A DNA stretch of 64,000 nucleotides, taken from NCBI GenBank assembly GCA_013314855.1, contig JABUEW010000002.1, positions 13,511 to 77,510 on the forward strand, in the 5' to 3' direction. The notes beneath the pieces were generated by a model. It was not told the origin of the DNA and searched no databases. It saw only the letters and a program-made list of their open reading frames with translations. A program made the position numbers and the translations under genes. This stretch comes from Bacillota bacterium (GTDB taxonomy: Bacteria > Bacillota > Clostridia > Acetivibrionales > DUMC01). This document shows positions 4,388 through 59,195 of this stretch, piece by piece (the stretch's first letter is position 1; every line of letters begins with the position of its first letter).

Positions 4388-5654
4388 ATTCAATCTCCCC
4401 CAATATTTCATCGCTACCCTCATCACTGCTGCCTTCGTTTAATACTTCAAGAAACACAGACATTAATTCCTCGGATATTTCAGTTCCTGTTCTCAATTTG
4501 TAAAATTCTCTGAAGAGCTGGTCAATTTTCCTGCCCTCTCTATTTTCAAAAGCAATCTCCTCAGTTATATCATTTTTTAGTACCGGTCTTATATTTATTA
4601 TCCCGGGATGTAATTGTCTGAGTTTTTTTTGTTCTTCCGCAGTAAATGGCCTATCTGTAATAATCTCAAGGTCTATCCATGCATTTTTGTCTCTTCCTGT
4701 TTCACACCATTCAAATGCCTGCATTATACCATCCCTGGCCTGCCACCTTTTTAAAGGCTTGCCGCAGTCCAGAAAAATCTCTTTTATATCCGCTTCTTTT
4801 CCAGGTTCCGCATCAATTATGTATAACGCCTTGCTGTAATCTGCTTCGGAAAAACTATAAGCTAATGGCGATCCTGAATAACATGCCGGACATGGCGCAT
4901 TTTTGACCCACTGGGGTCTGTGAAGATGTCCGAGAGCAACAAAATGGGCATTTGAAGGCAGTACAGAAGGGTCAACAGTAAACGCTCCTCCCACCTGGAT
5001 GGTCCTTTCGGATTCTGATTCTCTCCCCCCTCGCATGAATAAATGACTCATTGCAAGATTTATTGTATCCTTCCTGAAATTCTCCTTTAATCTTCCAAGC
5101 AGGTTTCCCACTTTATCTGAATAAGCTTTCTGAAGTAATTCTTCATCCGCTTCACGGGTTAGAACTTCCTCAAGACGCGCCTCGGATGGATAAGGCAAAG
5201 TTAATATTACCGCGCTTTCGTTACAATGTGCTATACCCAGTTCCAACCATCCGGGACCTGAATTGACAAGTTTTATATTATCCGTGTTAATTTTATATGT
5301 ACCAGGGTCACTTCCCGGATAACCCAAAAGAATAATTCCGTTTTTATATGCTAAGGGGCTTGCAGCGCATAGCCTTTCCGGATTGTCGTGATTCCCCGCA
5401 ATAACCACCACTGCTCTCCGTCCCCTTGCGTTAAGCTTGTCTACCGCATCGTAAAAAAGCTCTTCCGCTGCAGTTGGCGGATTATAGGTGTCATATACAT
5501 CCCCAGATACAAGCACAAGATCAATTCGTTCTTCTTCCACTATTTTACACAAGCACTCAATAAATTCCCGCTGTTCATCAATACGGTTTATTTGACGGTT
5601 TATTTGCTCTAGGGATTTACCCAGGTGCCAATCCGACGTGTGCAGTATTCTCAT
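4368..5654 (-). CDS. sbcD: SbcD/Mre11-type nuclease
   Basis: MRILHTSDWHLGK, SGDVYD, GNHD and GHLH phosphoesterase motifs. GGAGG 6 nt upstream of the ATG at 5654. The ORF-track start at 5672 is probably an extension. Confidence 0.9.
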   Translation of the reverse strand: MRILHTSDWHLGKSLEQINRQINRIDEQREFIECLCKIVEEERIDLVLVSGDVYDTYNPPTAAEELFYDAVDKLNARGRRAVVVIAGNHDNPERLCAASPLAYKNGIILLGYPGSDPGTYKINTDNIKLVNSGPGWLELGIAHCNESAVILTLPYPSEARLEEVLTREADEELLQKAYSDKVGNLLGRLKENFRKDTINLAMSHLFMRGGRESESERTIQVGGAFTVDPSVLPSNAHFVALGHLHRPQWVKNAPCPACYSGSPLAYSFSEADYSKALYIIDAEPGKEADIKEIFLDCGKPLKRWQARDGIMQAFEWCETGRDKNAWIDLEIITDRPFTAEEQKKLRQLHPGIINIRPVLKNDITEEIAFENREGRKIDQLFREFYKLRTGTEISEELMSVFLEVLNEGSSDEGSDEILGEIEYETQIS

Positions 5655-5841
5655 AAAACCCTCCACTATCAACTACAGTTATATAATTATAATATCACGA
5701 TAAATCCAATAATTACAAGTATGTCTTACATAACTTGGATTATGACCTATCTATATAGAATATGGAATATGGAATATGGAATACAGAATAGAATGGAATA
5801 AATACGAGGTAAATTAGATTGGTAAAGGAAACCAATAAAAC

Positions 5842-5893: not shown

Positions 5894-5950
5894 ATTCTTG
5901 CGGGGCTATACAAGCAGTGACTATACAAGCAATGACTTTATTAACAGTGA

Positions 5951-8038
5951 CTATATAAACAGATAAAGCATTCTGGTCTGAGGAATACTAATGCTCAGCC
6001 TGTTATCTTGAAAGCTGAAATCCACCTGAATACATTCACCTTCTATATCCTCCCCTGTAATCTTTTCAGGCTTTTTATCCATATTTATAACAATGCTACC
6101 TCTTGCAAGCTGATTGCAGTTACCTATAATGAACAGGTCATTTTCATTTTCACTAATCCATCGGCTGCATTTCAACCCCTCGCTCATGTAAAGTATACCC
6201 TCATCATCTGCATATCGTCTATTTATGATAAAGGAATTCAGCTTTCTTCTGAAACAAAGGGCCTTCCTTGCATACTCTCGAAGTTCTGCATTATCATCAA
6301 ATTTATATGTTACTCCAAGCCACATTACCGACCCTAAGAGCAGAGCTCTCTCCATGTCTTTATAAAACCTGTAAACCATTTCTTCGCCATGAAGTCCTGC
6401 TCTTGGGTTGACCATATTTACCTGGACATACTCGGGGAATGTGTATTTAAAAATATTGAAGTACTCATCATAAGGGTCCCCGTTCCAGGTGAGGCTCCCC
6501 CATACATAGCTTCCATATATGTCTCCACAATTCTCAATCATAATAAACGAATCCGGATTCAGTCTTTTTAATTTCTCATTCAATGTTTTGAGTACATATA
6601 GGTATCCTTTATTAAATTCACCAATGTTTCCATGACTGTGCTTTTCATTATAACACGGGTAAGGCTCTGCCGAACCCAGTTGGTCAAGATATATTCCCGT
6701 AGCACCATAACTTTTTACCATCCAGCAAGCTGTATCGATCAGAAGCTTCTGCCATCTTTCATCAGATGGACACATTACGGCAAATTTGACAGGGCTCCCA
6801 TACTGTTCGACAATGAAATCCCCATCTTCTTTTTTTATGGCCATCTCCTGACCAAGTGTGGGAAAAAACTCTGAGTCCATGTCAAATATTCTTGCATTTA
6901 TATAGAAGGTAACAAAACCCCCATTTTTATTTACATAACTGCATCCATTATATAAATCCATGGAAGTCCCCAGGTCCATATCCGGGTAATACTCTGCATA
7001 GTTACAGTCAAATCCCTTTCTGTTCCAGCTGGCTATAAACATATGCCTCAATCCGTATTCCATACCTCTGTCAAACAGATTGGGTATTTTATCGAACCTG
7101 TTCATGACTTTTCCATCTTTCTTAAAATTGTAACATTGATTTAAAGCATACTCATTTTTAAGATATGAGGGATTATTATCAAACATGAGGTATTGTTCAA
7201 TCCATTTTCTGTAAGTTTTTGCACCCCAATGCCAGTCCTCGCAGTTTACTGCAATGATATAAGGGTTTGATCTCCATTTTTCTCCATTCTTAATTCTTAG
7301 GTATTTTCTTATACCAAAACCCATCCATGGGTTTTTCGGTCCACCTGTCTCGACGCGCATCCCAGTTACCGGAAAATCACCGTCATTTGAGCTTATATAA
7401 AAACCGTTATTCTCGTCGTAGTAGTACATCCACATCATTGAGGCAAGACCACAATAGTTTATTTCCCTGTAATAAATGCCGTCCTTAATGTTTGTGTTGG
7501 CCCTCCAAAAATTCAAGTATCTATCCGTAACATACTCTTCAACCGGATTCTTCGTCTTCTCTCCCGCATGATGCGGATAAATAACCACATCATCCTTCCA
7601 GCTTTCGCCCAGATAAATACCGGTTATACGCGGAAATAGGACTTCCACAATATCATATTTTGTATCCCTGTTTTCCAGCTCAATGCTCCATTGGGTAGCA
7701 CAATCGTCTTTTAGTTCAATCAGGATTTTTACAACAATATCAACACTGTTTTCTACACTGTTTTCGGCACTGTTTTCTATACTCGAAAGCCCCTCGTAGT
7801 ATATCTCAGCCCTGTTGGTTCCCACATCCTGCGACATATTCACCACTCCTGCCGCAGAAGGAACAAACACTTCTTTTACCCCCTCCTGTTTTCTTATACA
7901 TGAAAGGGAAAAAATGGGGTATCCTGGGACAGTTTTGATATAATTATCGTTGGTAATTTTGTTTCTAATTTCTACCAGATTATTAATGCAACTATCAAAA
8001 GTCAGGTTCAAAAAATTGTTACCTAAAGTATGTAGCAT
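5951..8038 (-). CDS. Large cytoplasmic protein, glycoside-hydrolase-like, family not recognisable by eye
   Basis: Uninterrupted 695-aa ORF with no signal peptide, last gene of the GntR sugar operon. Segments such as GATGIYLDQLGS and FIASWNRKGFD resemble TIM-barrel glycosidase cores. Contains an in-frame ENSA/ENSV/ENSV repeat. Confidence 0.6.
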   Translation of the reverse strand: MLHTLGNNFLNLTFDSCINNLVEIRNKITNDNYIKTVPGYPIFSLSCIRKQEGVKEVFVPSAAGVVNMSQDVGTNRAEIYYEGLSSIENSAENSVENSVDIVVKILIELKDDCATQWSIELENRDTKYDIVEVLFPRITGIYLGESWKDDVVIYPHHAGEKTKNPVEEYVTDRYLNFWRANTNIKDGIYYREINYCGLASMMWMYYYDENNGFYISSNDGDFPVTGMRVETGGPKNPWMGFGIRKYLRIKNGEKWRSNPYIIAVNCEDWHWGAKTYRKWIEQYLMFDNNPSYLKNEYALNQCYNFKKDGKVMNRFDKIPNLFDRGMEYGLRHMFIASWNRKGFDCNYAEYYPDMDLGTSMDLYNGCSYVNKNGGFVTFYINARIFDMDSEFFPTLGQEMAIKKEDGDFIVEQYGSPVKFAVMCPSDERWQKLLIDTACWMVKSYGATGIYLDQLGSAEPYPCYNEKHSHGNIGEFNKGYLYVLKTLNEKLKRLNPDSFIMIENCGDIYGSYVWGSLTWNGDPYDEYFNIFKYTFPEYVQVNMVNPRAGLHGEEMVYRFYKDMERALLLGSVMWLGVTYKFDDNAELREYARKALCFRRKLNSFIINRRYADDEGILYMSEGLKCSRWISENENDLFIIGNCNQLARGSIVINMDKKPEKITGEDIEGECIQVDFSFQDNRLSISIPQTRMLYLFI
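7744..7779 (-). repeat. In-frame 12-nt x3 tandem repeat inside the 695-aa gene
   Basis: The plus strand reads cactgttttcta / cactgttttcgg / cactgttttcta, encoding ...ENSAENSVENSVD... Confidence 0.8.
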
Positions 8039-8148
8039 AACTGCACCCCTATTCTGCTTTTTCTTTTTGTTACGATTGTTGTTTTAAGTGTTCTATTGTT
8101 TTTTCATTCTACTCTTTATTTCTCTTTTACTCATTATTTTACTTGTTG

Positions 8149-8883
8149 TTATATTTCATAGGTTGAGAATTCCTCTGACACCCAAACATTTTTAAAATAC
8201 TTTTTCGCCTCAGAAAGATATTTCTCTCTTTTTTCTTCATACCAAAAATGTGTAAGTATAAGTTTGTTTACTCCTGATGAAGCTGCAACTCTGCCTGCCG
8301 CTCCCGCCGACATATGATGTGCCAGCCTGGTACCACCTGTTTTTTCGAGTACCGATGATTCACACAGGAAGAGGTCTGCCCCCTTTGCTGCTTCTGTAAT
8401 TTCATCACCAAAACATGTATCTCCTGAATAAACAAATCTCTTCTCGCCTTTTATAATTATGATTGCATAACTTTCAATTAGATGAGGGACTCTGGCAAAA
8501 GATATTTTTAATCCTCCTGCTGTAATTTCGGAATTTTCCATAATAAATTCGTGGTCAAATACATTATCCCTGCATATTTCTTCCGCCAATACCGAAGGGC
8601 GCATGGGAAGACAAAGTCTCATCCTCCTCATATTCTGGTTCATCCCAACTTTCGTCTCTATCGCATATTTCAGAGGGAAAATGTCAGCAATATGATCAAA
8701 ATGCAGGTGCGAAAGAATTATCATATCTATATCCTCTATCCTGCAATATCGCTGAAGCCTGCTTATAGTTCCATTTCCACAATCTATAAGTATCCTTGTG
8801 CTTTCATCCTGTATAAAATATCCGGAACAAGCCCCGTTAACTCCGGGGAAAGTGCCATAGTTGCCAAGTATTGTAAGTTTCAT
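8149..8883 (-). CDS. MBL-fold metallo-hydrolase
   Basis: HLHFDH (HxHxDH) motif and later SGDT / LTHF motifs. GGAG-type RBS upstream. Confidence 0.8.
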   Translation of the reverse strand: MKLTILGNYGTFPGVNGACSGYFIQDESTRILIDCGNGTISRLQRYCRIEDIDMIILSHLHFDHIADIFPLKYAIETKVGMNQNMRRMRLCLPMRPSVLAEEICRDNVFDHEFIMENSEITAGGLKISFARVPHLIESYAIIIIKGEKRFVYSGDTCFGDEITEAAKGADLFLCESSVLEKTGGTRLAHHMSAGAAGRVAASSGVNKLILTHFWYEEKREKYLSEAKKYFKNVWVSEEFSTYEI

Positions 8884-8937
8884 TCAATTCCACTCCCCAA
8901 ATTATTAATATCCCTTCCTATCATCAATATGTCTTTC

Positions 8938-9912
8938 TTACTTTAATAATATTATATCATTATAGCTCACTTCCAGGTTGTTAATAATTAAGTCATTGTA
9001 AATATCTATCCCTGCCTCCTTCATCGCAATCATCAGAGAGCCGACTGAGGGTTTAAATTTTGGGTTCCTGACATTTATATTGTTATTTCCTTTTTTTACA
9101 TACTCAATAAAAGGTTTTATTAAAAAATCTCCAAATTTAGTTACCCCACCTGTAAGTACGGCATCATATTCACCATCATACATGTTTAACCTCTTTGCCA
9201 TCCTTTTTACAAGAGAGGCAAGGTGTTTTGCAGCATCTTTAATTATACCTACTGAAACAGCATCGCCTTCAGCTGCTTCGCTATACACAATCTTACTTAT
9301 TTGTGATATCTTTAATCTGTCAAATTCACTGTTATAAACAAGGTGTCTTATTTCCGGAATTTCGCTTATACCAAAATATTCTTTCAGTTTTTCTGTAAGT
9401 GAAGTTTTTAAACTTCTATCTTCATATTCCCTGATTACGGCTTTTAAAGCAGAAAGGCCCATATAATATCCACTGCCTTCATCTCCAAGAACAGGGCCCC
9501 ATCCTCCCATCTCGGCACTTTCACCTTTCCTGTTTACACCCATTGCAAATGAACCGGTACCACTTAATACAACTATACCAAAAGGCTTTGCCAGCGCACT
9601 GTAAAATGCACTCAATTCATCTCCTGTAACACAAATATTACGTATTTCAGATGCATAATCTTCCTTTAATTCGTTTCCGTACTTTCTCATACCCGGAACA
9701 CAAATAGCCGCATAATCAAAAGTACCTTCGATTTGCCCACTGTATGCTGCTTCTCTAATGGATTGCCTTATTGCCTCCATGGCTACAGATTTATCAACAA
9801 AAAGCGGATTTGATGGGCCTCCGGTTCCTCTTCCTAATATAACACCATTTTCATTACAAATCAGGGTTTCGGTCTTTGTACCTCCCCCATCTACACCTAC
9901 AAACAGCATCAT
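8938..9912 (-). CDS. BadF/BadG/BcrA/BcrD-family sugar kinase (N-acetylglucosamine-kinase-like), copy 1
   Basis: VGVDGGGTKTE phosphate-1 motif, LSGTGS, GGWGPVLGDEGSG and LTGGV motifs. Its start shares one nt with the SIS stop (TAATG). Confidence 0.8.
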   Translation of the reverse strand: MMLFVGVDGGGTKTETLICNENGVILGRGTGGPSNPLFVDKSVAMEAIRQSIREAAYSGQIEGTFDYAAICVPGMRKYGNELKEDYASEIRNICVTGDELSAFYSALAKPFGIVVLSGTGSFAMGVNRKGESAEMGGWGPVLGDEGSGYYMGLSALKAVIREYEDRSLKTSLTEKLKEYFGISEIPEIRHLVYNSEFDRLKISQISKIVYSEAAEGDAVSVGIIKDAAKHLASLVKRMAKRLNMYDGEYDAVLTGGVTKFGDFLIKPFIEYVKKGNNNINVRNPKFKPSVGSLMIAMKEAGIDIYNDLIINNLEVSYNDIILLK

Positions 9913-10652
9913 TAATACAAACCTCTTATCCTTTCTCTGTATTTGCTTATATAATAAGCGTTATGCTCATCGCCTCCCGGTACATTTGCACTCATAAAAA
10001 CCGGTGGCTTTTTCCCTTTTTTCAGAAATTCATTAACAACACTAATAACCAGCTTCTGGGCTATGTAGATTCCCGCTATTGATGAAATTGCTCCAACCTT
10101 TTGCCCATATTCTTGAATCTCTATTGACGCATCATCTCCTTTTATGCAGTTATCAATAACATAATCGGCAATATCCATAAGTTTTTTACCAGATGCATGT
10201 CTTGGCTGCAGCGAACTTGACAGACTTACAGATGTGATGGCTATAACCTTCAGACTATTTTGCTTACAGAGAAGAGCCATCTCCACCGGTACTGAATTTA
10301 TCCCGGAGTTTGATATAATAAGAACGGGCTCTCCTTTCTTAAATCTTACGCTTTCAAAAACTCCAGCTGCATATCCTGAAAGACGCTCAACCTTTGTACT
10401 CTTGAAAGCTCCTTCATGAAGCATAAGTACAGGATCAAGTATGGGGTTTACCGGCACAAGTCCACCTGCTCTGTAGAACATTTCTTCCACAATCATATGG
10501 GAGTGCCCTGTAGAAAAAACATGCAGCAACCCTTCATTTTCTATAGCTTCACTTATTATCCTTCCTGCTTCTCTTATTACCTCGCTTTGTGTTCTTTCTA
10601 TTTCATTCAAAAGATCAATTACAACCACCTTGAACCTGCTTTCATCAATCAT
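9912..10652 (-). CDS. SIS-domain protein (single-SIS, UPF0309-like), copy 1
   Basis: HVFSTGHSHM...YRAGGL and ISNSGIN motifs. Start set at MIDESRF (ATG 10652) because a GGGGGG RBS lies 9 nt upstream and this RBS context is conserved in the decayed paralog at 13017. This gives 246 aa, the same as copy 2. Confidence 0.75.
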   Translation of the reverse strand: MIDESRFKVVVIDLLNEIERTQSEVIREAGRIISEAIENEGLLHVFSTGHSHMIVEEMFYRAGGLVPVNPILDPVLMLHEGAFKSTKVERLSGYAAGVFESVRFKKGEPVLIISNSGINSVPVEMALLCKQNSLKVIAITSVSLSSSLQPRHASGKKLMDIADYVIDNCIKGDDASIEIQEYGQKVGAISSIAGIYIAQKLVISVVNEFLKKGKKPPVFMSANVPGGDEHNAYYISKYRERIRGLY

Positions 10653-10773
10653 TATATTTACCCCCCTCTTAGTATACATTGATGGGTTCTTTTCAAAAAT
10701 ATTCACTTTATGTAATTTTTAATTCTTTTGTAAGGTTGTAACGAAAATTTTTTGCTATTCATAAAACTTTTAT

Positions 10774-10792
10774 TGGTATAAATATAATACCA
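10774..10792. promoter_or_regulatory. Inverted repeat TGGTAT-N7-ATACCA in the 368-nt gap inside the sugar locus; candidate GntR/HutC operator
   Basis: tggtataaatataatacca has perfect 6-nt arms. It lies upstream of the SIS1-kinase1-MBL-695aa sub-operon. TGGTAT also occurs in the two repeated motifs flanking the gntR gene. Confidence 0.35.
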
Positions 10793-11020
10793 CAAATACC
10801 CATATTAACCGCATTTCTACATTTGTAAGTATAACTCCAAGAATTTTATTGTAAATTTTTCATTTATACATATATTATCCCATAATCGTATTCTTCAGGT
10901 ATATATCTATATGGTGTAATTTTGTTTCTACTTAATGGGATACAGAGGCAGGGCAAAAATAACTTCAAACCCTTTACCTGGCACTATACTATCTGGAATT
11001 TGGAGAAAGATATCTACTTT

Positions 11021-11761
11021 CTAGTATCCATATTTCTCATAATTTTGCCAGGACTCGGTGTTAATTTTACCAGCATTTTCTATATGGTTGCTTACATATA
11101 CACTGGGCTTTTTGCCTCTTTCTAACATTCTTTCTACCACTTCCGCCTGTAATGCCCACATTATATAAGCAGCAGCTATACCACTGGATGGACATATAGA
11201 TTTGCCCAGTTCTTCTACTTCTACCAGTGTATCCCCAATATTACTGCAGTTATCGAGGACATAATCGCACACTTCGAATAATTTTTTCCCACTTGGGTGC
11301 TCTGCCTTAAGACTCTTTGAATACTCTATTGAAGTCAGCGCAATTGTATGCACTCCCATCTTCCTGGCTTCTAAGGCCATTTCCACAGGCAGTATGTTCT
11401 TTCCTGAGACAGAACCTATTAATAAAACATCTCCCGCCATAATGTTTGACTTAAAAAGAATAAATTTAGGAAGTCCTTCGATCTCATCCAGATAAACTTT
11501 CTTTTTACCAGTAATGGTTCTCGGCCTGGTCGGGTTGTTAACATCAACTGTTATATATACTGGCCTTACAGCCATCATTCCCCCGCTCCTGCCGATGCCT
11601 TCATGCATCAACATATGTCCCGTGTCAAGAAGGTGCCATACTCCATTATTGCAAAGCGATTCAGCTATAACCTCCGAGCACCTCTTTATAGTTTCAATTT
11701 GTGTCTTCTCTATCTTTTCCAGTACTTTTTTCATGTTTTCAAAGTATAGATTTGCAAGCAT
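11021..11761 (-). CDS. SIS-domain protein, divergent subfamily (copy 2)
   Basis: 246 aa. Same architecture (LLDTGHMLM..., GSVSGKN, HPSGKKL shared with copy 1) but much lower identity to copy 1 than the two kinases show to each other. Confidence 0.7.
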   Translation of the reverse strand: MLANLYFENMKKVLEKIEKTQIETIKRCSEVIAESLCNNGVWHLLDTGHMLMHEGIGRSGGMMAVRPVYITVDVNNPTRPRTITGKKKVYLDEIEGLPKFILFKSNIMAGDVLLIGSVSGKNILPVEMALEARKMGVHTIALTSIEYSKSLKAEHPSGKKLFEVCDYVLDNCSNIGDTLVEVEELGKSICPSSGIAAAYIMWALQAEVVERMLERGKKPSVYVSNHIENAGKINTESWQNYEKYGY

Positions 11762-11771
11762 CTTATCACCC

Positions 11772-12746
11772 TCAACTGTTAATCATATATTTTTTATAAG
11801 AATCATGCAGATTCTTTAAAATACTCTCACTTTCAATATTAATTCCCGATTCAATCATTGCAACCAGCAGTGAACCAACTGCAGGCCTTAACTTTGGAGT
11901 TCCTACATTTAGACAGTCACTGATTTTTTTTACTTCCTCTGTAAAAGGTTTCAAAATCAGTTCACCAAAGTTACTTATGCCACCTGTTAAGACAACATCA
12001 TACTCTTTATCATACATGTTTAACTTTTCTACTATAACTCTAACATATTCGGCAAGGTGTTTTGCTGCATTATTTATAATTTCAATTGCAACGACATCAC
12101 CGTCTCTTGCTGATTCGTGAACAATTTTACTAAGGCTGCTTATGATACTCCTGTTACATTCCTCGGAATAAACTTTTTTTCTTAATTCAGTTACTTCCTT
12201 AATACCAAAAAAGTCTAATACCTTAGGAGTAAGAGTAGTCTTCAAACCTGTCTCTTCATATTCCTTTATCACAGACTTCAAACACAAAATTCCTATGAAA
12301 TACCCGCTTCCCTCATCTCCAAGAATGGGGCCCCAGCCTCCTAATTTATGCTTTTTACCTTCTCTGTTGATTCCTAACGCAAAAGAACCAGTACCACTCA
12401 AGACAATTATCCCATATGGCTTTAAAAGCGCACTATAGAAAGCATTTAAATCATCACCGAAAATACCAACCTTTTTGCAGTATTTCAAATACTCTGATTC
12501 TACTTCACTTTTATATAGCTTTATCCCTGGAATACATACGGCGGCATACTCAATCTTTTTATCTCCGCCAATATCCTGAAAAGCTGAACCAGCCGATTCT
12601 CTTATTGTTTCCATTAACTTACTCTTTTCGGTAAAAAGAGGATTTGACGGTGCACCGACATATCTGCCTATTATATTACCTTCTTCATCACATATGAGGG
12701 TTTCTGTTTTTGTACCCCCACCATCAATACCTAGAAATAAACGCAT
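11772..12746 (-). CDS. BadF/BadG/BcrA/BcrD-family sugar kinase, copy 2
   Basis: 324 aa, the same length as copy 1 and apparently gap-free against it by eye. Motifs GIDGGGTKTE, LSGTGS, GGWGPILGDEGSG and LTGGI. Confidence 0.8.
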   Translation of the reverse strand: MRLFLGIDGGGTKTETLICDEEGNIIGRYVGAPSNPLFTEKSKLMETIRESAGSAFQDIGGDKKIEYAAVCIPGIKLYKSEVESEYLKYCKKVGIFGDDLNAFYSALLKPYGIIVLSGTGSFALGINREGKKHKLGGWGPILGDEGSGYFIGILCLKSVIKEYEETGLKTTLTPKVLDFFGIKEVTELRKKVYSEECNRSIISSLSKIVHESARDGDVVAIEIINNAAKHLAEYVRVIVEKLNMYDKEYDVVLTGGISNFGELILKPFTEEVKKISDCLNVGTPKLRPAVGSLLVAMIESGINIESESILKNLHDSYKKYMINS

Positions 12747-13017
12747 TAGTATAAACTCCTTATTTTCTTCTTATACTTTTCGATCAATTTGGCATTATGT
12801 TCATCTCCATCTAGATAAGACCGCCCGCCCTGTAGAAAAGCTCTTCAGCTATCATATGCGAGTTCCCGGTTGAAAAAACGTGCAAAACACCTTCATTGCT
12901 TAAAGCCTGACTTATTAACGCACCGGCCTTTTCTATATTTTCTCGCTGTGTAGTTTCTATCTCGTTTATCAGGTCTACTACTACATTGTTAAACTTGCCC
13001 TCATCAAATATATTTAA
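12746..13017 (-). pseudogene. Decayed third SIS gene: start codon lost, large internal deletion, frameshift
   Basis: The minus strand reads (no ATG) NIFDEGKFNNVVVDLINEIETTQRENIEKAGALISQALSNEGVLHVFSTGNSHMIAEELFYRAGGLI*. A different frame then reads DGDEHNAKLIEKYKKKIRSLY*, which matches the C-terminus of SIS copy 1 (GGDEHNAYYISKYRERIRGLY*). The TAATG junction with kinase 2 is retained. Confidence 0.8.
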
Positions 13018-13035
13018 CCCCCGGTTGTTATATTT

Positions 13036-13063
13036 ATGAAGAGCCCTTTTCAGAGCTCTTCAT
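13036..13063 (-). terminator. Hairpin after the SBP gene (attenuator or partial terminator)
   Basis: ATGAAGAGC / GCTCTTCAT form a 9-bp stem with a 10-nt loop. The downstream U-tract is weak. Confidence 0.35.
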
Positions 13064-13076
13064 AAAGGTTTATGGA

Positions 13077-14417
13077 CTATTCACCTGCCAGTATTTTATT
13101 TCCCTGTGTTTCAATTGCAGCTGCCACTTCATCTACACTCTTCTGGCCGGCAAACAGGAATTCCATTTCTTCTCTCCACATCTTGTAGAAAGCCGAACCA
13201 TATAACAACGTTCTGAAAGGAACTGCATATTCGAGTGAATCAATCAGGTGCTTATTATCAGGTCTTGCAGCAAGGAAACCGGATGTATCAACCTGCTTGC
13301 TGGCCGGCAAGCCCATTTTCTCATTGAGCACAATCTGCTGTCCTTCCTTGCCAGACAGGAACTCAAGCAATTTCCATGATGTCTTGGGATCCTTTACGCC
13401 CTTAGGCATGCACCATGTATTAACGAAAGCATGTGAAACCTTCTTGCCATCATTACTAACCGGAAGAGGAACTATTGCATATTCAACAGGAGGTGTAGCG
13501 GTATCAAAATCGAATGATGCTGAAAGACCTCCAATTGTCATTGCAACCTTTCCTGCAACTACCGGGGCAGTACCTGATGTTCCAAATTGCTCTGCTTCTG
13601 CAGCGGTAGGCATTACCTTGTATTTGAAAATCAAGTCATGCAGGAACTGCATTGCTGCTTTTGATTCTGGTGTGTTCATCATAACCTTCTTTCCATCTGC
13701 TGAAACATAGTCCCCCCCGAAAAGCAGGAACCAGTCATAAAAAGGATCAGGATACAGTTTGTTATAGTATCCCCACTGTACAGGTTTTCCATTCTCTACC
13801 TTTGTCATCTTTTTGCAAATGTCAAGGAAGTCGTTGACGGTCCAACCTGGCTGCGGTAGCGGTATACCTGCGTCATCAAACATCTTTTTATTGCAGAACA
13901 TAACCATTGTTGTTACGTCTCTTGCAACAGCGTAAAGCTTACCCTCGATTGTCAATGCATTCAGAACAAGAGGATAAAGGCTTGCTTTATATTCATCAGA
14001 GACATATGGAGTGAGGTCCTGAATTGCACCTGCATTTGCATATCTTGGTACCTGGTCCATCGCAAGCATCATTACATCCGGCATGTCTCCTCCGCCAGCA
14101 ATAAGTGTAATAACCTTGTCTGCATATCCTGAACCAATCTGAGTGAATTCGATTTTCATATTCGGATTCAGTTCTTCGAATTTAGCTTTTAGGTTCTGCA
14201 AAGCTGTAGACTTTGTGGCGTCCCACCATGAAAGCACCTTTACCGTTATTTTTTCAGCAGGCTGGCTGGTCGTGGCAGCAGCATTATCAGTTCTTCCTGT
14301 TGCTGCACTGTCATCTGTGTCAACCTTCTTTGACTGTTGTACACATCCAATTAATGTGAACAGCATAAAGCATACGAGCATTAAAGTTACAAGTTTTGTA
14401 AACAACCTTTGTTTCAT
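13077..14417 (-). CDS. CUT1-type sugar ABC transporter substrate-binding lipoprotein
   Basis: Signal peptide with lipobox LIGC followed by a Ser/Thr/Ala-rich linker. Family-1 SBP length and layout. Confidence 0.85.
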   Translation of the reverse strand: MKQRLFTKLVTLMLVCFMLFTLIGCVQQSKKVDTDDSAATGRTDNAAATTSQPAEKITVKVLSWWDATKSTALQNLKAKFEELNPNMKIEFTQIGSGYADKVITLIAGGGDMPDVMMLAMDQVPRYANAGAIQDLTPYVSDEYKASLYPLVLNALTIEGKLYAVARDVTTMVMFCNKKMFDDAGIPLPQPGWTVNDFLDICKKMTKVENGKPVQWGYYNKLYPDPFYDWFLLFGGDYVSADGKKVMMNTPESKAAMQFLHDLIFKYKVMPTAAEAEQFGTSGTAPVVAGKVAMTIGGLSASFDFDTATPPVEYAIVPLPVSNDGKKVSHAFVNTWCMPKGVKDPKTSWKLLEFLSGKEGQQIVLNEKMGLPASKQVDTSGFLAARPDNKHLIDSLEYAVPFRTLLYGSAFYKMWREEMEFLFAGQKSVDEVAAAIETQGNKILAGE

Positions 14418-14609
14418 ACAAATCCCCCTTTTAATTTAATTTTTTTGATTTGTTTTACTGCTTGGGCTTTATACAAATGCTCTACTCAACAAATGTGAAG
14501 ATGCTCTGTTATCGTTTTTGAGTATCGCCTTTTATACAAAGTCCCAGTAAAAGAGTTTTATAATAAACCCCATTAAGGGTTATTATCTGATTTCTTACCT
14601 ATTTAGGCT

Positions 14610-15464
14610 TTATTGTCCTCCCAATCCGGTATTTACAACTGTCCTTATAAAATATTTCTGGAAGACAAGGAATATTATAATTGTCGGAAGTATTGCTATC
14701 GTTGACCCCGCAAGCACTATGCCCCAGTTTGTATTTACAGAGCCCTTGAGATATTGGAGTCCTACCTGTATGGGCATTTTTTCATAGGTGTTCATTACAA
14801 TCATGGGCCACAGAAATTCATTCCACTTTCTGTTAAAGGACAGGATTGCCACCGTAGCCAATGCGGGTTTCGCATTAGGTAATATAATGTTCAAAAATAC
14901 CCTGAAACGTGAACATCCATCAATTATTGCAGCAGCCTCCAAATCCTTCGGTATTGATAGAAAATACTGTCTTAGAAAAAATATGTTAAATATATTACCA
15001 CCGCTCACCAGTGAAGGTACTATCAGGGCTTCATATTTGTCAATCCAGTGAAGTATACGCATGATTATAAAATTTGGGATTAGTGTTACATGTCCGGGAA
15101 TCATCATTGTGCCCAGGAGCATAAGAAAGATTATATTTTTCCCTTTAAAGTTTAGCCTTGCAAATGAATATGCGGCCATTGACGCCAGTATTATCTGCAA
15201 AACAGGCACAAAAGTTGATAAAAATAATGAGTTCAAAACAAATCTTCCAAATGGAAGCAGTTCCACAACTCTTTCATAATTGTAAGTGGTAATCGGATTT
15301 GGTATTAAATTAAAAGGATTGCCGTTATACAGCTGTGCCGTAGTTTTGAAAGAAGCGGTAACTCCCCATATAAACGGATAAATCATAGTAATGGATAAAA
15401 CAGTCATAACAGAATAAAATATTATACTCCCAACCTTTATTTTCAAAAAATTCACCTCCATCAA
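14610..15464 (-). CDS. Carbohydrate ABC transporter permease (MalG-like)
   Basis: Six predicted TM segments. EAA-loop-like LEAAAIIDGCSRFRVFLNIILP. Confidence 0.85.
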   Translation of the reverse strand: MMEVNFLKIKVGSIIFYSVMTVLSITMIYPFIWGVTASFKTTAQLYNGNPFNLIPNPITTYNYERVVELLPFGRFVLNSLFLSTFVPVLQIILASMAAYSFARLNFKGKNIIFLMLLGTMMIPGHVTLIPNFIIMRILHWIDKYEALIVPSLVSGGNIFNIFFLRQYFLSIPKDLEAAAIIDGCSRFRVFLNIILPNAKPALATVAILSFNRKWNEFLWPMIVMNTYEKMPIQVGLQYLKGSVNTNWGIVLAGSTIAILPTIIIFLVFQKYFIRTVVNTGLGGQ

Positions 15465-15493
15465 CAGGTTAATATTCTACATAAGCCATCTCA

Positions 15494-16441
15494 TCACTGC
15501 TGCTCTTTCTTCCTTCTCAGCCTGAACTGAATGAGAGTCAAAACGAACAGTATAGCAAATAATATCCATGCCAGAGCAGAGGCATATCCCATTCTATAAT
15601 ACTGAAAACCGTTATAATAAATATAGTACAGCAGTGTATTCGTAGAACCTGCCGGTCTTCCCTCAGTCATAACAAAAATTGCTTCGAAAATGTTAAACGC
15701 CTCTATTATTAACATAATGGTCACAAAAAACGTTGTATTAGAAAGCATGGGAACCGTAATATATCTGTATTTCTGCCACTTCCTGGCCCCATCAACTTCG
15801 GCCGCCTCATATAGAGTTTCGGGTATTGTTTGTAACCCGGCAAGGAACATTATCATATAATAGCCACACATCTGCCATATTCTCATAATGATAAGAGCAG
15901 GCTTTGCCCAAACCACGCTTTGAAGCCACATGGGTGTATTTGTTATGCCTATTAAGTGGAGCAGAGTATTTATCAGTCCATTGGTCGGGTTTAGAATCCA
16001 GAGCCATATCATCGATACAGCTATTGTAGATGTAATATTTGGTATGTAAAACGAAACCTTAAAGAAGCTGGTAAGTTTATTTACCTTTTGATTTATAGCT
16101 ATTGCTGTTAACATTGACAGTATAAGGACGGAAGGCACCAATCCTATAACAAAATAAACGGTGTTATACATGCACTGCCAGAAGGATTCATCCTTAAATA
16201 CCCTTATGTAATTCTGTATCCCTATAAAGACAGGCGGGGTTAATAGGTCCCATTTTGTAAGGGATATTACCAGAGAATATATTACAGACCCTGCAACAAA
16301 AACCAAAAACCCAATAAGTATTGGAAGAATAAACAGCCATCCAGTTATAGTCTCCTGTTTTTTTAGACTGATATGTATTTTGCCTGAAAGCCTTGGCGTA
16401 GTTGTAGTTACCCTACTATTTTCTCGGTTCAGCAGGCTCAT
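15494..16441 (-). CDS. Carbohydrate ABC transporter permease (MalF-like)
   Basis: EAA loop YEAAEVDGARKWQKYRYITVPML. Multiple TM segments. Confidence 0.85.
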   Translation of the reverse strand: MSLLNRENSRVTTTTPRLSGKIHISLKKQETITGWLFILPILIGFLVFVAGSVIYSLVISLTKWDLLTPPVFIGIQNYIRVFKDESFWQCMYNTVYFVIGLVPSVLILSMLTAIAINQKVNKLTSFFKVSFYIPNITSTIAVSMIWLWILNPTNGLINTLLHLIGITNTPMWLQSVVWAKPALIIMRIWQMCGYYMIMFLAGLQTIPETLYEAAEVDGARKWQKYRYITVPMLSNTTFFVTIMLIIEAFNIFEAIFVMTEGRPAGSTNTLLYYIYYNGFQYYRMGYASALAWILFAILFVLTLIQFRLRRKKEQQ

Positions 16442-16574
16442 AAAATTATCTGCCCCTCCTCAATTTTAGTTATAGGTTTTATTTACAGCCTTCACCTGAT
16501 AAGATCAATTTACTTTTTCATTAATAATTATATACTTAAAACTACCTTAAGCATATGGAAACTTTATACAGTTT

Positions 16575-16608
16575 ATTATGTTGTCATGGTATTATGTTAT
16601 TATAACAA
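16575..16608. promoter_or_regulatory. Candidate GntR operator/promoter motif, copy A (upstream of the transporter operon)
   Basis: attatgttgtcatggtattatgttattataacaa contains the palindrome TGTTATTATAACA (GT-N-AC type). On the minus strand it contains TGTTATAAT (extended -10). A near-identical 34-nt motif occurs at 17461-17494. Confidence 0.5.
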
Positions 16609-16688
16609 CTTTGTGTAAAAATTTTCTCTTTAAATACAATTGCTGGTTTCCATATGACAACGATAATTAACTCCTTTTTTTCATCCTC

Positions 16689-17423
16689 TCATCTATATAA
16701 GTCAACATAAAACTTATATTTATCTCCTCTGTAAACTGATTTTACATACTCAAGTGGTGTGTCATTAGATGTATATGTCACCCTTTCAATAATAAGAGCT
16801 TGTGTACCGGTCCTTACATTAAGAAGCTTTGCTGTTCTTTTATCAATAAACCCTGCCTCAATACTCTGCCTTCCTTTTTTGATAGAGATATTGTATTTTT
16901 CCTGTAAGATTTTATAAAGCGAGCCGGTTAAATCATTCTGCTCAATGTCGGGGCAAAGGAAAAAAGGTATAAATACATTTTCCAGAGAAAGAGCCTGCTT
17001 ATTAGCATATCGAACTCTCTCAATCGAATACACCTTGACGGAAAGATCAATATTAAGCTTTTCTGCAACATCGGACGACGGGTTGCATATTACCAGCGAC
17101 AGTAGTTTGGTACTCGGCTCCAATCCCTTACTTCTCATCTCCTCAGAAAAACCTTGAAGAGAATTCAGCTGCATATTCATTTTATTCATTTTTACATAAG
17201 AGCCTTTACCTTGCTTTTTAACTATATATCCTTTATTTGTTAACCCCTCCAATGCCTGTCTTGCAGTTATCCTGCTTACATTGAAAAAATTACAGATTTC
17301 CTGTTCTGTCGGAAGCTTGTCGCCTTCTTTTAACTCACCGCTATCAATCTTTTCTGCAAAATACTGTATTATTTGCAGATATCTAGGTGTAAGTTCGCTA
17401 ATATTTATACCGATTTTATTCAC
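16689..17423 (-). CDS. GntR-family regulator, HutC/NagR-like (wHTH + UTRA)
   Basis: N-terminal LPTEQEICNFFNVSRITARQALEGLTNKGYIVKKQGKGSYV wHTH. C-terminal effector domain of UTRA length. Confidence 0.8.
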   Translation of the reverse strand: MNKIGINISELTPRYLQIIQYFAEKIDSGELKEGDKLPTEQEICNFFNVSRITARQALEGLTNKGYIVKKQGKGSYVKMNKMNMQLNSLQGFSEEMRSKGLEPSTKLLSLVICNPSSDVAEKLNIDLSVKVYSIERVRYANKQALSLENVFIPFFLCPDIEQNDLTGSLYKILQEKYNISIKKGRQSIEAGFIDKRTAKLLNVRTGTQALIIERVTYTSNDTPLEYVKSVYRGDKYKFYVDLYR

Positions 17424-17460: not shown

Positions 17461-17494
17461 ATTATGTTATTATGGTATTATGTTGTCATAACAA
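17461..17494. promoter_or_regulatory. Candidate GntR operator motif, copy B (upstream of gntR; autoregulation)
   Basis: attatgttattatggtattatgttgtcataacaa equals copy A with its two sub-sites swapped. Confidence 0.5.
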
Positions 17495-17650
17495 GTTGTC
17501 TTAAACTATACCTTATTTAAATGATAACACATCCGCATTCCGAAGTCAATAATTTTGTGTTAAATTTGTGTTAAAATTTTTGGCAAGCCTTCATTCCATT
17601 CTTTGGCAGGAGTGTTGTAAATCATTTTATTGCTCATAAGAATTCCCCTT

Positions 17651-25236: not shown

Positions 25237-25394
25237 TTGCAGTCCCTCCAAAATACAAAATACCATCATTGGTGCTGCAATACTTATTATTATTATAACA
25301 TTAAAACAAAGTGCATCAAGTAACAATTCTTTTTTATTTGTCGAATTGTGCCGAATTATTATACTTGAAATTATAATAATTTCTGTTATAATAA

Positions 25395-37527: not shown

Positions 37528-37657
37528 ACAGCCACACTCTCACTTTCTAAACATGTAGTTTTTTATATGCATACAAGTATATCTGCATTTGCTTGACTCT
37601 GTCACAGCAAAGCCACGGGATTCTTGAGAAGTTTGGCGATGTTTTGCCAAGGTATTT

Positions 37658-49648: not shown

Positions 49649-49673
49649 CCCTTTATATTTCTACATTATATCT

Positions 49674-59177: not shown

Positions 59178-59195
59178 CCGCTTCCGTCACAAAAA

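What the first reader, a model, noticed from the sequence alone, without database searches (positions are those of the whole stretch)
5951..17423. GntR(HutC)-controlled sugar locus with duplicated BadF-kinase/SIS modules, an MBL hydrolase and a 695-aa glycosidase-like protein of unrecognised family
Minus-strand order is gntR, permease, permease, SBP, SIS remnant, kinase 2, SIS 2, a 368-nt gap, SIS 1, kinase 1, MBL hydrolase and the 695-aa protein.

The two BadF-type kinases are both 324 aa and align without obvious gaps by eye, with clearly high identity. The two intact SIS proteins are both 246 aa but are far more divergent from each other.

Kinase + SIS pairs are the core of amino-sugar and Amadori catabolism (MurK/MurQ, FrlD/FrlB logic). 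However, these SIS proteins are single-domain UPF0309-like, not MurQ or FrlB. The MBL hydrolase and the large cytoplasmic protein have no assigned role in those pathways.

Two kinase/SIS sets behind one transporter suggest a hetero-disaccharide (or glycoside) whose two halves are phosphorylated and processed separately. nagA/nagB and a GH20 enzyme elsewhere in the window fit an amino-sugar theme. I could not assign this to a described pathway.
Basis: partly seen in the sequence, partly recalled or inferred. Interest (0 to 1): 0.66.

Follow-up and report, generated by a model that had tools for sequence, protein, structure and literature searches.

The report
Uncharacterised amino-sugar glycoside catabolic operon
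This is a real, widely conserved but biochemically uncharacterised sugar-utilisation operon. Its "duplicated" kinase/SIS modules are the leftover of two copies of the same operon merging, not two processing arms. Its gene content fits breakdown of alpha-linked N-acetylglucosamine units from a phosphodiester-bridged cell-wall polymer.

Summary
The minus strand carries gntR, two permeases, an SBP, a decayed SIS gene, kinase 2, SIS2, a 368-nt gap, SIS1, kinase 1, an MBL hydrolase and a 695-aa protein.

The 695-aa protein is not family-less. It is Pfam DUF6259, and its model has the fold of retaining alpha-HexNAc/HexN-ases (GH36, GH129, GH101).

In 46 well-covered related loci the canonical set is GntR, ABC transporter, SIS1, one kinase, SIS2, DUF6259 and often MBL. 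None has two kinases.

The window locus is a mosaic. Its transporter half resembles one lineage and its enzyme half another. The SIS remnant is the redundant SIS1 copy in decay. The "hetero-disaccharide, two arms" reading is therefore not supported.

SIS1 keeps every catalytic residue of NagS. SIS2 has a fixed alternative set. True MurQ replaces SIS1 in four loci.

Related loci embed secreted phosphodiesterases, interchangeable cytoplasmic phosphoesterases and two unrelated glycerate kinases. My hypothesis is catabolism of Clostridioides-type lipoteichoic acid repeats (GlcNAc-α1,3-GlcNAc-α1,2-glycerate, 6-P-6 bridged). This is inferred, not shown. No described pathway was found.

The parts
17461..17497 (-). 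Operator-like 37-nt motif upstream of gntR (probable autoregulation site), overlapping promoter-like hexamers
   Evidence: Direct repeat family D6, 86% identical to 16575-16611. Promoter-like sites at 17549-17521 and 17489-17461. The same TTGTTATGACAACATAAT core lies upstream of perm1 and gntR in related locus L001.
16689..17423 (-). HutC-subfamily GntR regulator (244 aa)
   Evidence: Pfam GntR plus UTRA domains. 72% identical to the L001 regulator.
16575..16611 (-). Operator-like 37-nt motif upstream of the transporter genes; contains the perfect palindrome TGTTAT-T-ATAACA
   Evidence: overlaps TTTACA-17-CATAAT. Conserved in L001.
15494..16441 (-). ABC permease 1 (CUT1 type, 315 aa)
   Evidence: BPD_transp_1. 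80% identical to L001 perm1.
14610..15464 (-). ABC permease 2 (278-284 aa)
   Evidence: BPD_transp_1. 80% identical to L001 perm2.
13077..14417 (-). Extracellular solute-binding lipoprotein (446 aa), followed by a stem-loop at about 13040-13070
   Evidence: SBP_bac_1 and SBP_bac_8. Only generic CUT1 relatives in the PDB. Stem-loop read from the sequence.
12746..13008 (-). Pseudogene: SIS1-type gene with about 160 codons deleted, a frameshift, a lost start codon and catalytic His->Asn
   Evidence: 74% identical to L001 SIS1, 65% to window SIS1 and 59% to L085 SIS1.
11772..12746 (-). BadF-type sugar kinase 2 (324 aa, intact); the extra copy
   Evidence: PF01869. 53% identical to kinase 1. Only 52-53% identical to the kinases of either parental lineage.
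11021..11761 (-). SIS2-type UPF0309 protein (246 aa)
   Evidence: SIS_2 and NF002805. Family signature H53, R64, D179, with E94->D, N228->H and S91->V/I.
10653..11020 (.). 368-nt non-coding junction between the two mosaic halves. It carries a promoter-like site and no GntR operator motif.
   Evidence: TTTACA-16-TATACT at 10855-10828. Identity gradients on either side.
9912..10652 (-). SIS1-type UPF0309 protein (246 aa) with the full set of NagS catalytic residues
   Evidence: 82% identical to L085 SIS1.
8938..9912 (-). BadF-type sugar kinase 1 (324 aa); orthologue of the single kinase of the closest relatives
   Evidence: PF01869. Best PDB match is MurK, 8zo3. 75% identical to the L085 kinase.
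8149..8883 (-). Cytoplasmic MBL-fold hydrolase (244 aa, HLHFDH motif), YhfI/BA1088-like probable phosphodiesterase
   Evidence: Motif read from the translation.
5951..8038 (-). DUF6259 protein (695 aa), cytoplasmic, with an alpha-glycosidase-like three-domain fold. Candidate catalytic pair D452/E502.
   Evidence: Pfam PF19773. Invariant residues. Model pLDDT 90.8. Foldseek matches to GH36, GH129 and GH101.

Best explanation
**What the locus is.** It is one member of a conserved catabolic operon family: GntR, CUT1 ABC importer, SIS1, one BadF kinase, SIS2, DUF6259, and often an MBL hydrolase.

**Shown**
- The gene set and its conservation across 46 well-covered related loci.
- The single-kinase, two-SIS canon.
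- The mosaic origin of the window's extra kinase and its SIS pseudogene.
- The alpha-glycosidase fold of DUF6259.
- The NagS/MurQ-type active-site signatures of the two SIS families.
- The conserved operator motif.

**Inferred mechanism**
1. An oligomeric glycoside is imported.
2. DUF6259 acts as a cytoplasmic retaining alpha-glycosidase (probably an alpha-N-acetylhexosaminidase) and frees the aglycone and a reducing end.
3. The MurK/NagK-like kinase makes the 6-phosphate.
4. SIS2 and SIS1 ring-open the sugar 6-phosphate. By MurQ/NagS-type C2 enolisation and C3 beta-elimination or hydration they remove a 3-O substituent and yield GlcNAc-6-P for NagA/NagB.
5. The MBL enzyme hydrolyses a phosphodiester or phosphomonoester left on the imported fragment.
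6. The HutC repressor sits on the 37-nt operators until a sugar phosphate releases it.

**Most specific inference.** The natural substrate is a fragment of a phosphodiester-bridged Gram-positive surface polymer. [quoted passage not shown]

**Window-specific point.** The second kinase and the SIS remnant are relics of recombination between two divergent copies of this operon. They are not a second functional arm.

**Confidence.** The 0.6 applies to the general statement. The specific lipoteichoic-acid substrate carries about 0.3.
For: **Conservation**
- 46 loci with adequate flanks: kinase in 44 (always one copy), SIS2 in 44, SIS1 in 41, SBP in 44, permeases in 42-43, GntR in 34, MBL in 21.

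**Mosaic origin**
- GntR, perm1, perm2, SBP and the remnant are 72, 80, 80, 64 and 74% identical to L001.
- SIS1, kin1, MBL and DUF6259 are 82, 75, 66 and 78% identical to L085. L085 has the canonical order SBP-SIS1-kin-SIS2-MBL-Metallophos-DUF6259.
- The arrangement is reproduced in a second assembly.

**DUF6259**
- pLDDT 90.8.
- Foldseek E 1e-27 to GH36 alpha-galactosaminidase 9ayu; target-normalised TM-score 0.72 to GH129 alpha-GalNAc-ase 5wzp; also matches GH101.
- D452 and E502 are invariant.

**SIS proteins**
- PDB matches 3cvj and NagS 9eol.
- SIS1 keeps H53, R64, E94 and N228 in 55 of 55 sequences and D179 in 54 of 55.
- SIS2 has E94D in 55 of 63 and N228H in 61 of 63.
- Bona fide MurQ (TIGR00274, 350-374 bits against a cut-off of 302) is present in four loci, none of which has a SIS1 gene in the DNA held.
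- Distant NagS homologues are inactive on plain GlcNAc-6-P (PMC12680351).

**Kinase**
- Best PDB hit is MurK, 8zo3.

**Phosphate theme**
- Secreted Metallophos/beta-propeller, NPP/purple-acid-phosphatase/CBM6 or alkaline-phosphatase proteins lie in or next to 17 of 46 loci. In L004, L012 and L085 the gene sits between MBL and DUF6259.
- The Metallophos domain is nearest to the phosphodiesterases Rv0805/Icc.
- AP_endonuc_2, His_Phos_1 or PHP genes occur almost only where MBL is absent (11 of 12 loci, Fisher p = 0.003).
- One variant has DUF6259-PHO4-GH4.

**Glycerate theme**
- GlxK-type kinases with a CdaR regulator, or MOFRL-type glycerate kinases, occur in 9 of 46 loci. One overlaps the end of the MBL gene.

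**Polymer structure**
- Taken from PMC13558421 and PMC10642750.

**Operator**
-.
Against: - No enzyme activity is known for any DUF6259 protein or for any Firmicute UPF0309 protein.
- The fold does not fix the sugar or even the anomer.
- The window itself has no secreted phosphoesterase and no glycerate kinase. The substrate inference therefore rests on relatives.
- Glycerate kinases are present in only 9 of 46 loci and about four lineages, so they could be neighbours by chance.
- AP_endonuc_2 proteins are more often sugar isomerases or epimerases than phosphoesterases.
- If DUF6259 were a plain exo-alpha-GlcNAc-ase, NagA/NagB would suffice and the two SIS enzymes would be unexplained.
- Kinase 2 is intact, so a new specialised role cannot be excluded.
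- There is no operator in front of SIS1-kin1-MBL-DUF6259, so co-regulation of that half is unproven.
- The counts are not corrected for phylogenetic relatedness.
Confidence: 0.6

Rival explanations
1. First reader's model. There are two parallel kinase+SIS modules behind one transporter. Each phosphorylates and processes one half of an imported hetero-disaccharide.
For: - Two intact kinases, both with the DGGGTKT motif, that have diverged to 53% identity.
- Two intact SIS genes of different type.
- Kinase 2 shows no sign of decay.
Against: - None of 46 well-covered related loci has two kinases, and 41 have both SIS types with one kinase.
- The closest relatives (78% identical DUF6259) are canonical.
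- The SIS gene originally coupled to kinase 2 is a pseudogene.
- The two halves of the locus trace to different lineages.
Confidence: 0.08
2. A peptidoglycan or wall-polymer linkage-unit salvage system. The imported fragment contains MurNAc carrying a C6 phosphodiester to alpha-GlcNAc-1-P (the teichoic-acid or secondary-polymer linkage unit). DUF6259 'uncovers' MurNAc-6-P, and the SIS enzymes act as MurQ-like etherases.
For: - The kinase is nearest to MurK.
- The SIS family is related to MurQ (PMC12680351).
- True MurQ is embedded in four loci.
- The phosphodiesterase theme.
- An alpha-HexNAc-ase-like fold.
Against: - No amidase, NagZ or muramidase genes recur in the clusters.
- Glycerate kinases and the CdaR regulator are unexplained.
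- Most loci use SIS1 rather than MurQ.
Confidence: 0.15
3. Catabolism of a glycosyl-glycerate compatible solute such as mannosylglycerate or glucosylglycerate. DUF6259 is the alpha-glycosidase, the kinase acts as a hexokinase, and the SIS proteins are hexose-6-P isomerases.
For: - Glycerate kinases of two families lie next to the cluster.
- An alpha-glycosidase fold.
- The second-best PDB match of the kinase is a broad-specificity hexokinase, 2e2n.
- His_Phos_1 neighbours.
Against: - It does not explain the large secreted polysaccharide-binding phosphodiesterases embedded in the operon.
- It does not explain the cytoplasmic phosphoesterases.
- It does not explain the NagS/MurQ-type catalytic residues or the MurQ replacement.
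Confidence: 0.1
4. Amadori or Heyns product (fructosamine-type) catabolism, following FrlD/FrlB logic.
For: A kinase plus SIS pairing under a HutC/GntR regulator. PRK11402-type regulators score moderately.
Against: - No PfkB-type FrlD and no double-SIS FrlB.
- A large glycosidase and phosphoesterases have no role in that pathway.
- The secreted phosphodiesterases of relatives do not fit.
Confidence: 0.03

Closest known systems
MurK/MurQ N-acetylmuramic acid salvage (Clostridium acetobutylicum MurK; MurNAc-6-P etherase MurQ)
   Same: - A BadF-type 6-kinase whose best solved relative is MurK.
- It is followed by a SIS enzyme of the MurQ-related branch.
- The expected chemistry is on a 3-O-substituted GlcNAc-6-P.
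- True MurQ substitutes for SIS1 in four related loci.
   Different: - The SIS proteins are single-domain UPF0309 (NF002805), not TIGR00274 MurQ.
- There are two paralogous SIS types.
- A DUF6259 glycosidase, an MBL hydrolase and an ABC importer replace the MurP PTS, amidase and NagZ context.
NagS (SCO4393), the GlcNAc-6-P dehydratase of Streptomycetaceae (PDB 9eol; PMC12680351)
   Same: - Same family and fold (E 9e-37).
- SIS1 keeps H53, R64, E94, D179 and N228.
   Different: - NagS orthologues share at least 58.7% identity, are restricted to Streptomycetaceae and sit next to dmdR1.
- Clostridium and Paenibacillus homologues tested in that paper had negligible or no activity on GlcNAc-6-P.
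- Here the gene sits in a transporter/glycosidase operon.
GH36, GH129 and GH101 retaining alpha-glycosidases (FpGalNase 9ayu, NagBb 5wzp, EngBF 2zxq)
   Same: - The three-domain architecture: N-terminal beta-sandwich, (beta/alpha)8 barrel, C-terminal beta-sandwich.
- An invariant Asp at the end of barrel strand 4, and a Glu about 50 residues later.
   Different: - Only 9-13% sequence identity.
- No Pfam, NCBIfam or PDB sequence match to any GH family.
- An invariant Cys/His cluster (C462, H467, H469) that I cannot relate to a known feature of those families; their residues were not compared here.
YhfI/BA1088-type MBL phosphodiesterases (PDB 6kns, 1zkp)
   Same: - 244-aa single-domain MBL with an HxHxDH motif.
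- E 6e-34 to 6kns.
   Different: - Scores 138 bits against the 400-bit cut-off of NF041851.
- It is embedded in a sugar operon.
- In relatives it appears interchangeable with PHP, His_Phos_1 or AP_endonuc_2 genes.

Membership tests
Pfam DUF6259 (PF19773) | Score above the gathering threshold of the family model | tested here: met
   106.4 bits against a cut-off of 28.7, residues 261-519. All 120 listed homologues carry PF19773.
GH36/GH129/GH101-type alpha-glycosidases | Three-domain fold with a central (beta/alpha)8 barrel | tested here: met
   Foldseek probability 1.00, E 1e-27 to 1e-19; target-normalised TM-score up to 0.72, on a model with pLDDT 90.8.
GH36/GH129/GH101-type alpha-glycosidases | Sequence membership in a curated GH family model | tested here: not met
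   No GH family in Pfam or NCBIfam. No PDB sequence hit better than E 0.9. CAZy/dbCAN was not available.
GH36/GH129/GH101-type alpha-glycosidases | Asp nucleophile after strand 4 and an acid/base carboxylate; alpha-glycosidase activity | tested here: inconclusive
   D452 (YLDQLG) and E502 (ENCGD) are invariant and lie at strand ends. No residue-level superposition or assay was possible.
UPF0309 / NF002805 (PRK02947) SIS proteins | Score above the curated cut-off of NF002805 | tested here: met
   SIS1 290.6 bits and SIS2 207.6 bits against a cut-off of 135.
NagS GlcNAc-6-P dehydratase | Catalytic residues H53, R64, E94, D179 (plus S91, N228) | tested here: met
   SIS1 has all of them, with S91 as T. 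SIS2 has H, R and D179 but E94D, N228H and S91V.
NagS GlcNAc-6-P dehydratase | Orthology: at least 58.7% identity, Streptomycetaceae only, adjacent to dmdR1 (PMC12680351) | tested here: not met
   Distant match only (130 bits). A Bacillota metagenome-assembled genome. The neighbours are a kinase and a transporter.
NagS GlcNAc-6-P dehydratase | Dehydration of GlcNAc-6-P to 6P-chromogen I | not testable with these tools
   Published assays of Clostridium and Paenibacillus homologues gave negligible or no activity.
MurQ MurNAc-6-P etherase | TIGR00274 equivalog score | tested here: not met
   No MurQ model among the hits of either window SIS protein. Genuine MurQ in L011, L016, L023 and L081 scores 350-374 bits.
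BadF/BadG/BcrA/BcrD-type sugar kinases (NagK/MurK group) | PF01869 domain with an N-terminal DGGGTKT ATP motif | tested here: met
   134.5 and 123.4 bits. Motif read. Best PDB hit is MurK, 8zo3.
NagK_SO3507 GlcNAc kinase equivalog | NF046058 score of at least 370 | tested here: not met
   122 and 113 bits.
HutC subfamily of GntR regulators | N-terminal GntR wHTH plus C-terminal UTRA domain | tested here: met
   GntR 63 bits and UTRA 138.8 bits.
FrlB/FrlD Amadori pathway | PfkB kinase FrlD and double-SIS deglycase FrlB | tested here: not met
   The kinases are BadF type. The SIS proteins are single-domain SIS_2.
YhfI-type cyclic-nucleotide/phosphodiester MBL hydrolase (NF041851) | Equivalog cut-off of 400 bits | tested here: not met
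   137.6 bits. The MBL fold and HLHFDH motif are present.

The most novel reading that the evidence does not exclude
The DUF6259 operon family is a dedicated utilisation system for clostridial (Clostridioides-type) lipoteichoic acid.

1. Secreted phosphodiesterases cut the 6-P-6 bridges.
2. DUF6259 founds a new glycoside hydrolase family that removes glycerate from alpha-GlcNAc.
3. The MurK-like kinase phosphorylates the reducing GlcNAc-alpha1,3-GlcNAc.
4. The SIS2/SIS1 pair, possibly a heterodimer, then breaks the alpha-1,3 glycosidic bond by MurQ-type beta-elimination and rehydration. This would be a non-hydrolytic way of cleaving a neutral HexNAc disaccharide.
Probability: 0.2. Interest if true: 0.8.

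Novelty: new variant of a known kind. Interest (0 to 1): 0.55.

Why it matters
- The operon occurs in gut and anaerobic-digester Bacillota, Anaerolineae, Spirochaetales and Acholeplasmatales. Cultured carriers include Clostridium tertium, Gemmiger formicilis, Ruthenibacterium lactatiformans and Paenibacillus species.
- None of its three signature enzymes has a known activity: DUF6259, the Firmicute UPF0309 SIS pair, and the MBL hydrolase.
- Assigning them would add a glycoside hydrolase family. It would give a substrate to the NagS homologues that were recently shown not to use GlcNAc-6-P.
- If the lipoteichoic-acid idea holds, it would reveal how commensals consume a major surface polymer and vaccine antigen of Clostridioides difficile.
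- For the window itself, the lesson is cautionary. The striking "duplication" is evolutionary debris, not pathway logic.

Tried and rejected
- Full-text searches for DUF6259 and UPF0309 returned nothing.
- Searches for teichoic-acid utilisation loci, alpha-GlcNAc-ases linked to lipoteichoic acid, and new GH families found no description of this system.
- A PDB sequence search with the 695-aa protein gave no meaningful hit.
- The SBP matched only generic CUT1 binding proteins, so it gives no ligand clue.
- No third operator copy lies in the 368-nt gap. In the exact-match scan the 13-nt palindrome of the transporter-side operator was found only in the window's own second assembly. A related motif is present in L001.
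- tblastn of the secreted phosphoesterases, glycerate kinases, PHP, AP_endonuc_2 and His_Phos_1 proteins of relatives against the window found nothing.
- Base composition shows no anomaly over the locus, so recent foreign origin cannot be argued from GC content.
- The Amadori and plain chitobiose/NagA-NagB readings were considered and rejected on gene content.
- An assembly artefact was rejected as the cause of the duplication, because an independent assembly has the same order.

Full report
**1. The observation**

The region 5951-17423 carries, on the minus strand:
- a GntR/UTRA regulator,
- two BPD_transp_1 permeases,
- an SBP_bac_1 binding protein,
- a BadF-type kinase,
- a SIS_2 protein,
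- a 368-nt gap,
- a second SIS_2 protein,
- a second BadF kinase,
- an MBL-fold hydrolase,
- a 695-aa protein.

The two kinases are 324 aa each and 53% identical over 317 residues without a gap. The two SIS proteins are 33% identical.

SIS1 starts at the ATG at 10652 behind a strong ribosome-binding site, which gives 246 aa. An independent gene call agrees.

Between the SBP gene and kinase 2 lies a decayed SIS1-type gene at 12746-13008:
- 66 N-terminal codons are 65% identical to SIS1.
- About 21 C-terminal codons lie in another frame.
- About 160 codons are missing.
- The start codon is lost and the catalytic His is changed to Asn.
- Its stop still overlaps the kinase-2 start (TAATG), the same one-base overlap as at the SIS1/kinase-1 junction.

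The two 37-nt motifs at 16575 and 17461 are real. They are 86% identical and overlap promoter-like hexamers.

The same gene order is found in a separate assembly of a public sequencing run (L084), so it is not an assembly artefact. The window matches a Bacillota metagenome-assembled genome.

**2. What the individual proteins are**

*The 695-aa protein.* It belongs to Pfam DUF6259 (106 bits). It has no NCBIfam family and no sequence relative in the PDB.
- An AlphaFold model built on 36 homologues has mean pLDDT 90.8.
- It shows an N-terminal beta-sandwich, a (beta/alpha)8 barrel and a C-terminal beta-sandwich.
- Foldseek matches it with probability 1.0 to retaining alpha-glycosidases that act on GalN, GalNAc and Gal. 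These are GH36 FpGalNase (E 1e-27), GH129 NagBb (TM-score 0.72 normalised by target length), ZgGH129, and GH101 endo-alpha-GalNAc-ases.
- D452 (YLDQLG, end of strand 4) and E502 (ENCGD) are invariant. They are my candidates for nucleophile and acid/base. This is inference.

*The SIS proteins.* They exceed the cut-off of NF002805 (UPF0309). They match PDB 3cvj and NagS (SCO4393).
- NagS is the only characterised member of the family. It is a GlcNAc-6-P dehydratase related to MurQ.
- The same paper reports that homologues from Clostridium and Paenibacillus have negligible or no activity on GlcNAc-6-P (PMC12680351).

*The kinases.* They are closest to MurK (8zo3), then to a broad-specificity hexokinase and to NagK enzymes.

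*The MBL protein.* It resembles YhfI/BA1088 phosphodiesterase-type enzymes and has the HLHFDH metal motif.

**3. Comparative genomics changes the reading**

A scan of one genome per species returned 80 loci encoding DUF6259 relatives. I called ORFs and searched them with the window proteins.

In the 46 loci with at least 7 kb upstream and 3 kb downstream:

| Component | Loci (of 46) |
|---|---|
| Kinase, always exactly one copy | 44 |
| SIS2 | 44 |
| SIS1 | 41 |
| SBP | 44 |
| Permeases | 42-43 |
| GntR | 34 |
| MBL | 21 |

The usual order is GntR-perm-perm-SBP-SIS1-kinase-SIS2-DUF6259-(MBL). The conserved unit is therefore one kinase with two different SIS proteins, not kinase/SIS pairs.

The two SIS types are stable subfamilies:
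- SIS1 keeps NagS residues H53, R64, E94 and N228 in 55 of 55 sequences, and D179 in 54 of 55.
- SIS2 keeps H53, R64 and D179.
- SIS2 has E94D (55 of 63), N228H (61 of 63), a hydrophobic residue at S91 and a two-residue deletion at S54.

NagS builds each active site from both subunits. A SIS1/SIS2 heteromer is therefore possible, but I did not test it.

**4. Origin of the duplication**

The closest relatives (DUF6259 78% identical) have the canonical order SBP-SIS1-kinase-SIS2-MBL-[secreted Metallophos protein]-DUF6259 (L004, L085).

The identities show that the window is a mosaic:

| Window gene | L001 type | L085 type |
|---|---|---|
| GntR | 72% | not available |
| perm1 | 80% | not available |
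| perm2 | 80% | 65% (C-terminal part only) |
| SBP | 64% | 56% |
| SIS remnant | 74% | 59% |
| SIS1 | 59% | 82% |
| Kinase 1 | 53% | 75% |
| MBL | 58% | 66% |
| DUF6259 | 62.5% | 78% |
| Kinase 2 | 53% | 52% |

The simplest account is recombination between two divergent copies of the same operon, joined in the 368-nt gap. That left a redundant SIS1, now a pseudogene, and a spare kinase.

The whole locus lies between addAB and sbcDC homologues.

**5. Regulation**

The operator-like motif occurs before gntR and before the transporter genes. The core TTGTTATGACAACATAAT recurs at the equivalent two positions of L001, whose regulator is 72% identical. This supports a real GntR site.

No copy lies in the 368-nt gap, which has only a promoter-like hexamer pair. 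Control of the SIS1-kin1-MBL-DUF6259 half is therefore unproven. It could be read-through or constitutive.

**6. Clues to the substrate from relatives**

*(a) Secreted phosphoesterases* are embedded in or adjacent to 17 of 46 loci.
- An approximately 1190-aa Metallophos plus beta-propeller protein, sometimes with a GH114-associated domain, sits between MBL and DUF6259 in L004, L012 and L085.
- There is also a 1730-aa NPP-phosphodiesterase / purple-acid-phosphatase / CBM6 protein, and an alkaline-phosphatase / Exo_endo_phos protein.
- The Metallophos domain is nearest to the phosphodiesterases Rv0805/Icc.

*(b) Cytoplasmic phosphoesterase-like genes look interchangeable.*
- AP_endonuc_2, His_Phos_1 or PHP genes occur in 12 loci, 11 of which lack MBL (Fisher p = 0.003, not corrected for phylogeny).
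- Kinase-less variants read GntR-DUF6259-PHP-SIS1-SIS2.
- One relative has DUF6259-PHO4 phosphate permease-GH4.

*(c) Glycerate kinases of two unrelated families flank 9 of 46 loci.*
- The GlxK type comes with a CdaR-type regulator in place of GntR.
- The MOFRL type overlaps the end of the MBL gene in Gemmiger.

*(d) Genuine MurQ* sits in four loci, none of which has a SIS1 gene in the DNA held for it.

**7. Proposed mechanism**

The components are an alpha-HexNAc-ase-like glycosidase, a MurK/NagK-like kinase, MurQ/NagS-like enzymes, phosphodiesterases and glycerate kinase. Together they match the parts list of the Clostridioides difficile lipoteichoic acid PS-III.
- After loss of glycerate and 6-phosphorylation, the reducing residue is a 3-O-substituted GlcNAc-6-P. 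That is a formal analogue of MurNAc-6-P and a natural substrate for beta-elimination.
- This would also explain why plain GlcNAc-6-P is a poor substrate for such homologues.

This assignment is inference from gene content. I give it about 0.3 within an overall 0.6 for the more general statement: catabolism of an alpha-linked HexNAc-type glycoside derived from a phosphodiester-bridged polymer.

The window itself has none of the accessory genes. It does encode nagA-like and nagB genes about 20 kb away.

**8. Rivals**

- The two-arm hetero-disaccharide model is contradicted by the single-kinase canon and by the pseudogene.
- A peptidoglycan/linkage-unit salvage model shares most features. It leaves glycerate kinases unexplained, and it lacks amidase and NagZ partners.
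- Glycosyl-glycerate solute catabolism explains glycerate kinase but not the secreted phosphodiesterases or the MurQ-type chemistry.
- The Amadori pathway fails on enzyme families.

**9. Novelty and score**

No paper in the searchable library mentions DUF6259 or UPF0309, or describes this operon.

DUF6259 is a sizeable family. It has 1937 representative clusters at E <= 1e-3 and 147 at E <= 1e-30.

The kind of system is familiar: a repressor-controlled ABC/glycosidase/kinase/SIS sugar operon. The enzymes and the substrate are not. I rate it a new variant of a known kind, with moderate interest.

Noticed in passing
window 683-5672 and 17651-25452: The sugar locus sits between sbcC/sbcD homologues (683-5672) and addA/addB-like helicase-nuclease genes (17651-25452), all on the minus strand. 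From memory, these two DNA-repair operons are adjacent in Bacillus subtilis. If so, the 11.5-kb locus may be an insertion into a conserved block.
   Followed up: partly
window 5906-5961: Three tandem copies of a 15-nt unit (CTATACAAGCAGTGA-like) lie immediately downstream of the DUF6259 stop codon (family D2). Their function is unknown.
   Followed up: no
window 36319-38850: A nagA-like amidohydrolase (36319-37527) and a nagB-type glucosamine-6-P isomerase (38080-38850) lie about 20 kb from the locus. They could take GlcNAc-6-P onward.
   Followed up: partly
window 48264-60641: A second carbohydrate locus is present: a GH127-like fragment, a GH20 hexosaminidase (49674-51575), another CUT1 ABC transporter (52689-55865), two GFO/IDH/MocA oxidoreductases, an AraC regulator and a sulfatase with an SGSH_C domain (59196-60641). 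This suggests use of a sulfated HexNAc glycan.
   Followed up: no
window 45126-47225: A PfkB-family sugar kinase (45126-46064) lies next to a D-2-hydroxyacid dehydrogenase (46218-47225). The latter family includes glycerate dehydrogenases, but no link to the locus was tested.
   Followed up: no
L011 3794-4738; L016 2902-3840; L023 4000-4911; L081 4752-5675: Bona fide MurQ etherase genes (above the TIGR00274 cut-off) sit inside DUF6259 clusters in which no SIS1 gene is found in the DNA held. MurQ appears to stand in for SIS1.
   Followed up: yes
L058, L061, L063, L071, L079: A kinase-less variant of the cluster reads GntR-DUF6259-PHP-SIS1-SIS2. In L058, L061, L063 and L079 it lies next to a secreted alkaline-phosphatase/Exo_endo_phos protein of about 955 aa. 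This suggests the sugar may enter already phosphorylated.
   Followed up: partly
L086 2134-6563: In a relative with 65% identity, DUF6259 is followed by a PHO4-family phosphate permease whose start overlaps its stop, and then by a GH4 glycosidase.
   Followed up: no
L001 12154-13419: A 422-aa NAT_N/GNAT_C N-acyltransferase-like protein lies directly downstream of DUF6259 in the L001 lineage. It might re-acetylate GlcN residues. This was not tested.
   Followed up: no
L003, L009, L040, L044, L053: MgtC-family membrane proteins recur next to the MBL or Metallophos genes in five loci from Paenibacillus and Oscillospiraceae. Their role is unexplained.
   Followed up: no
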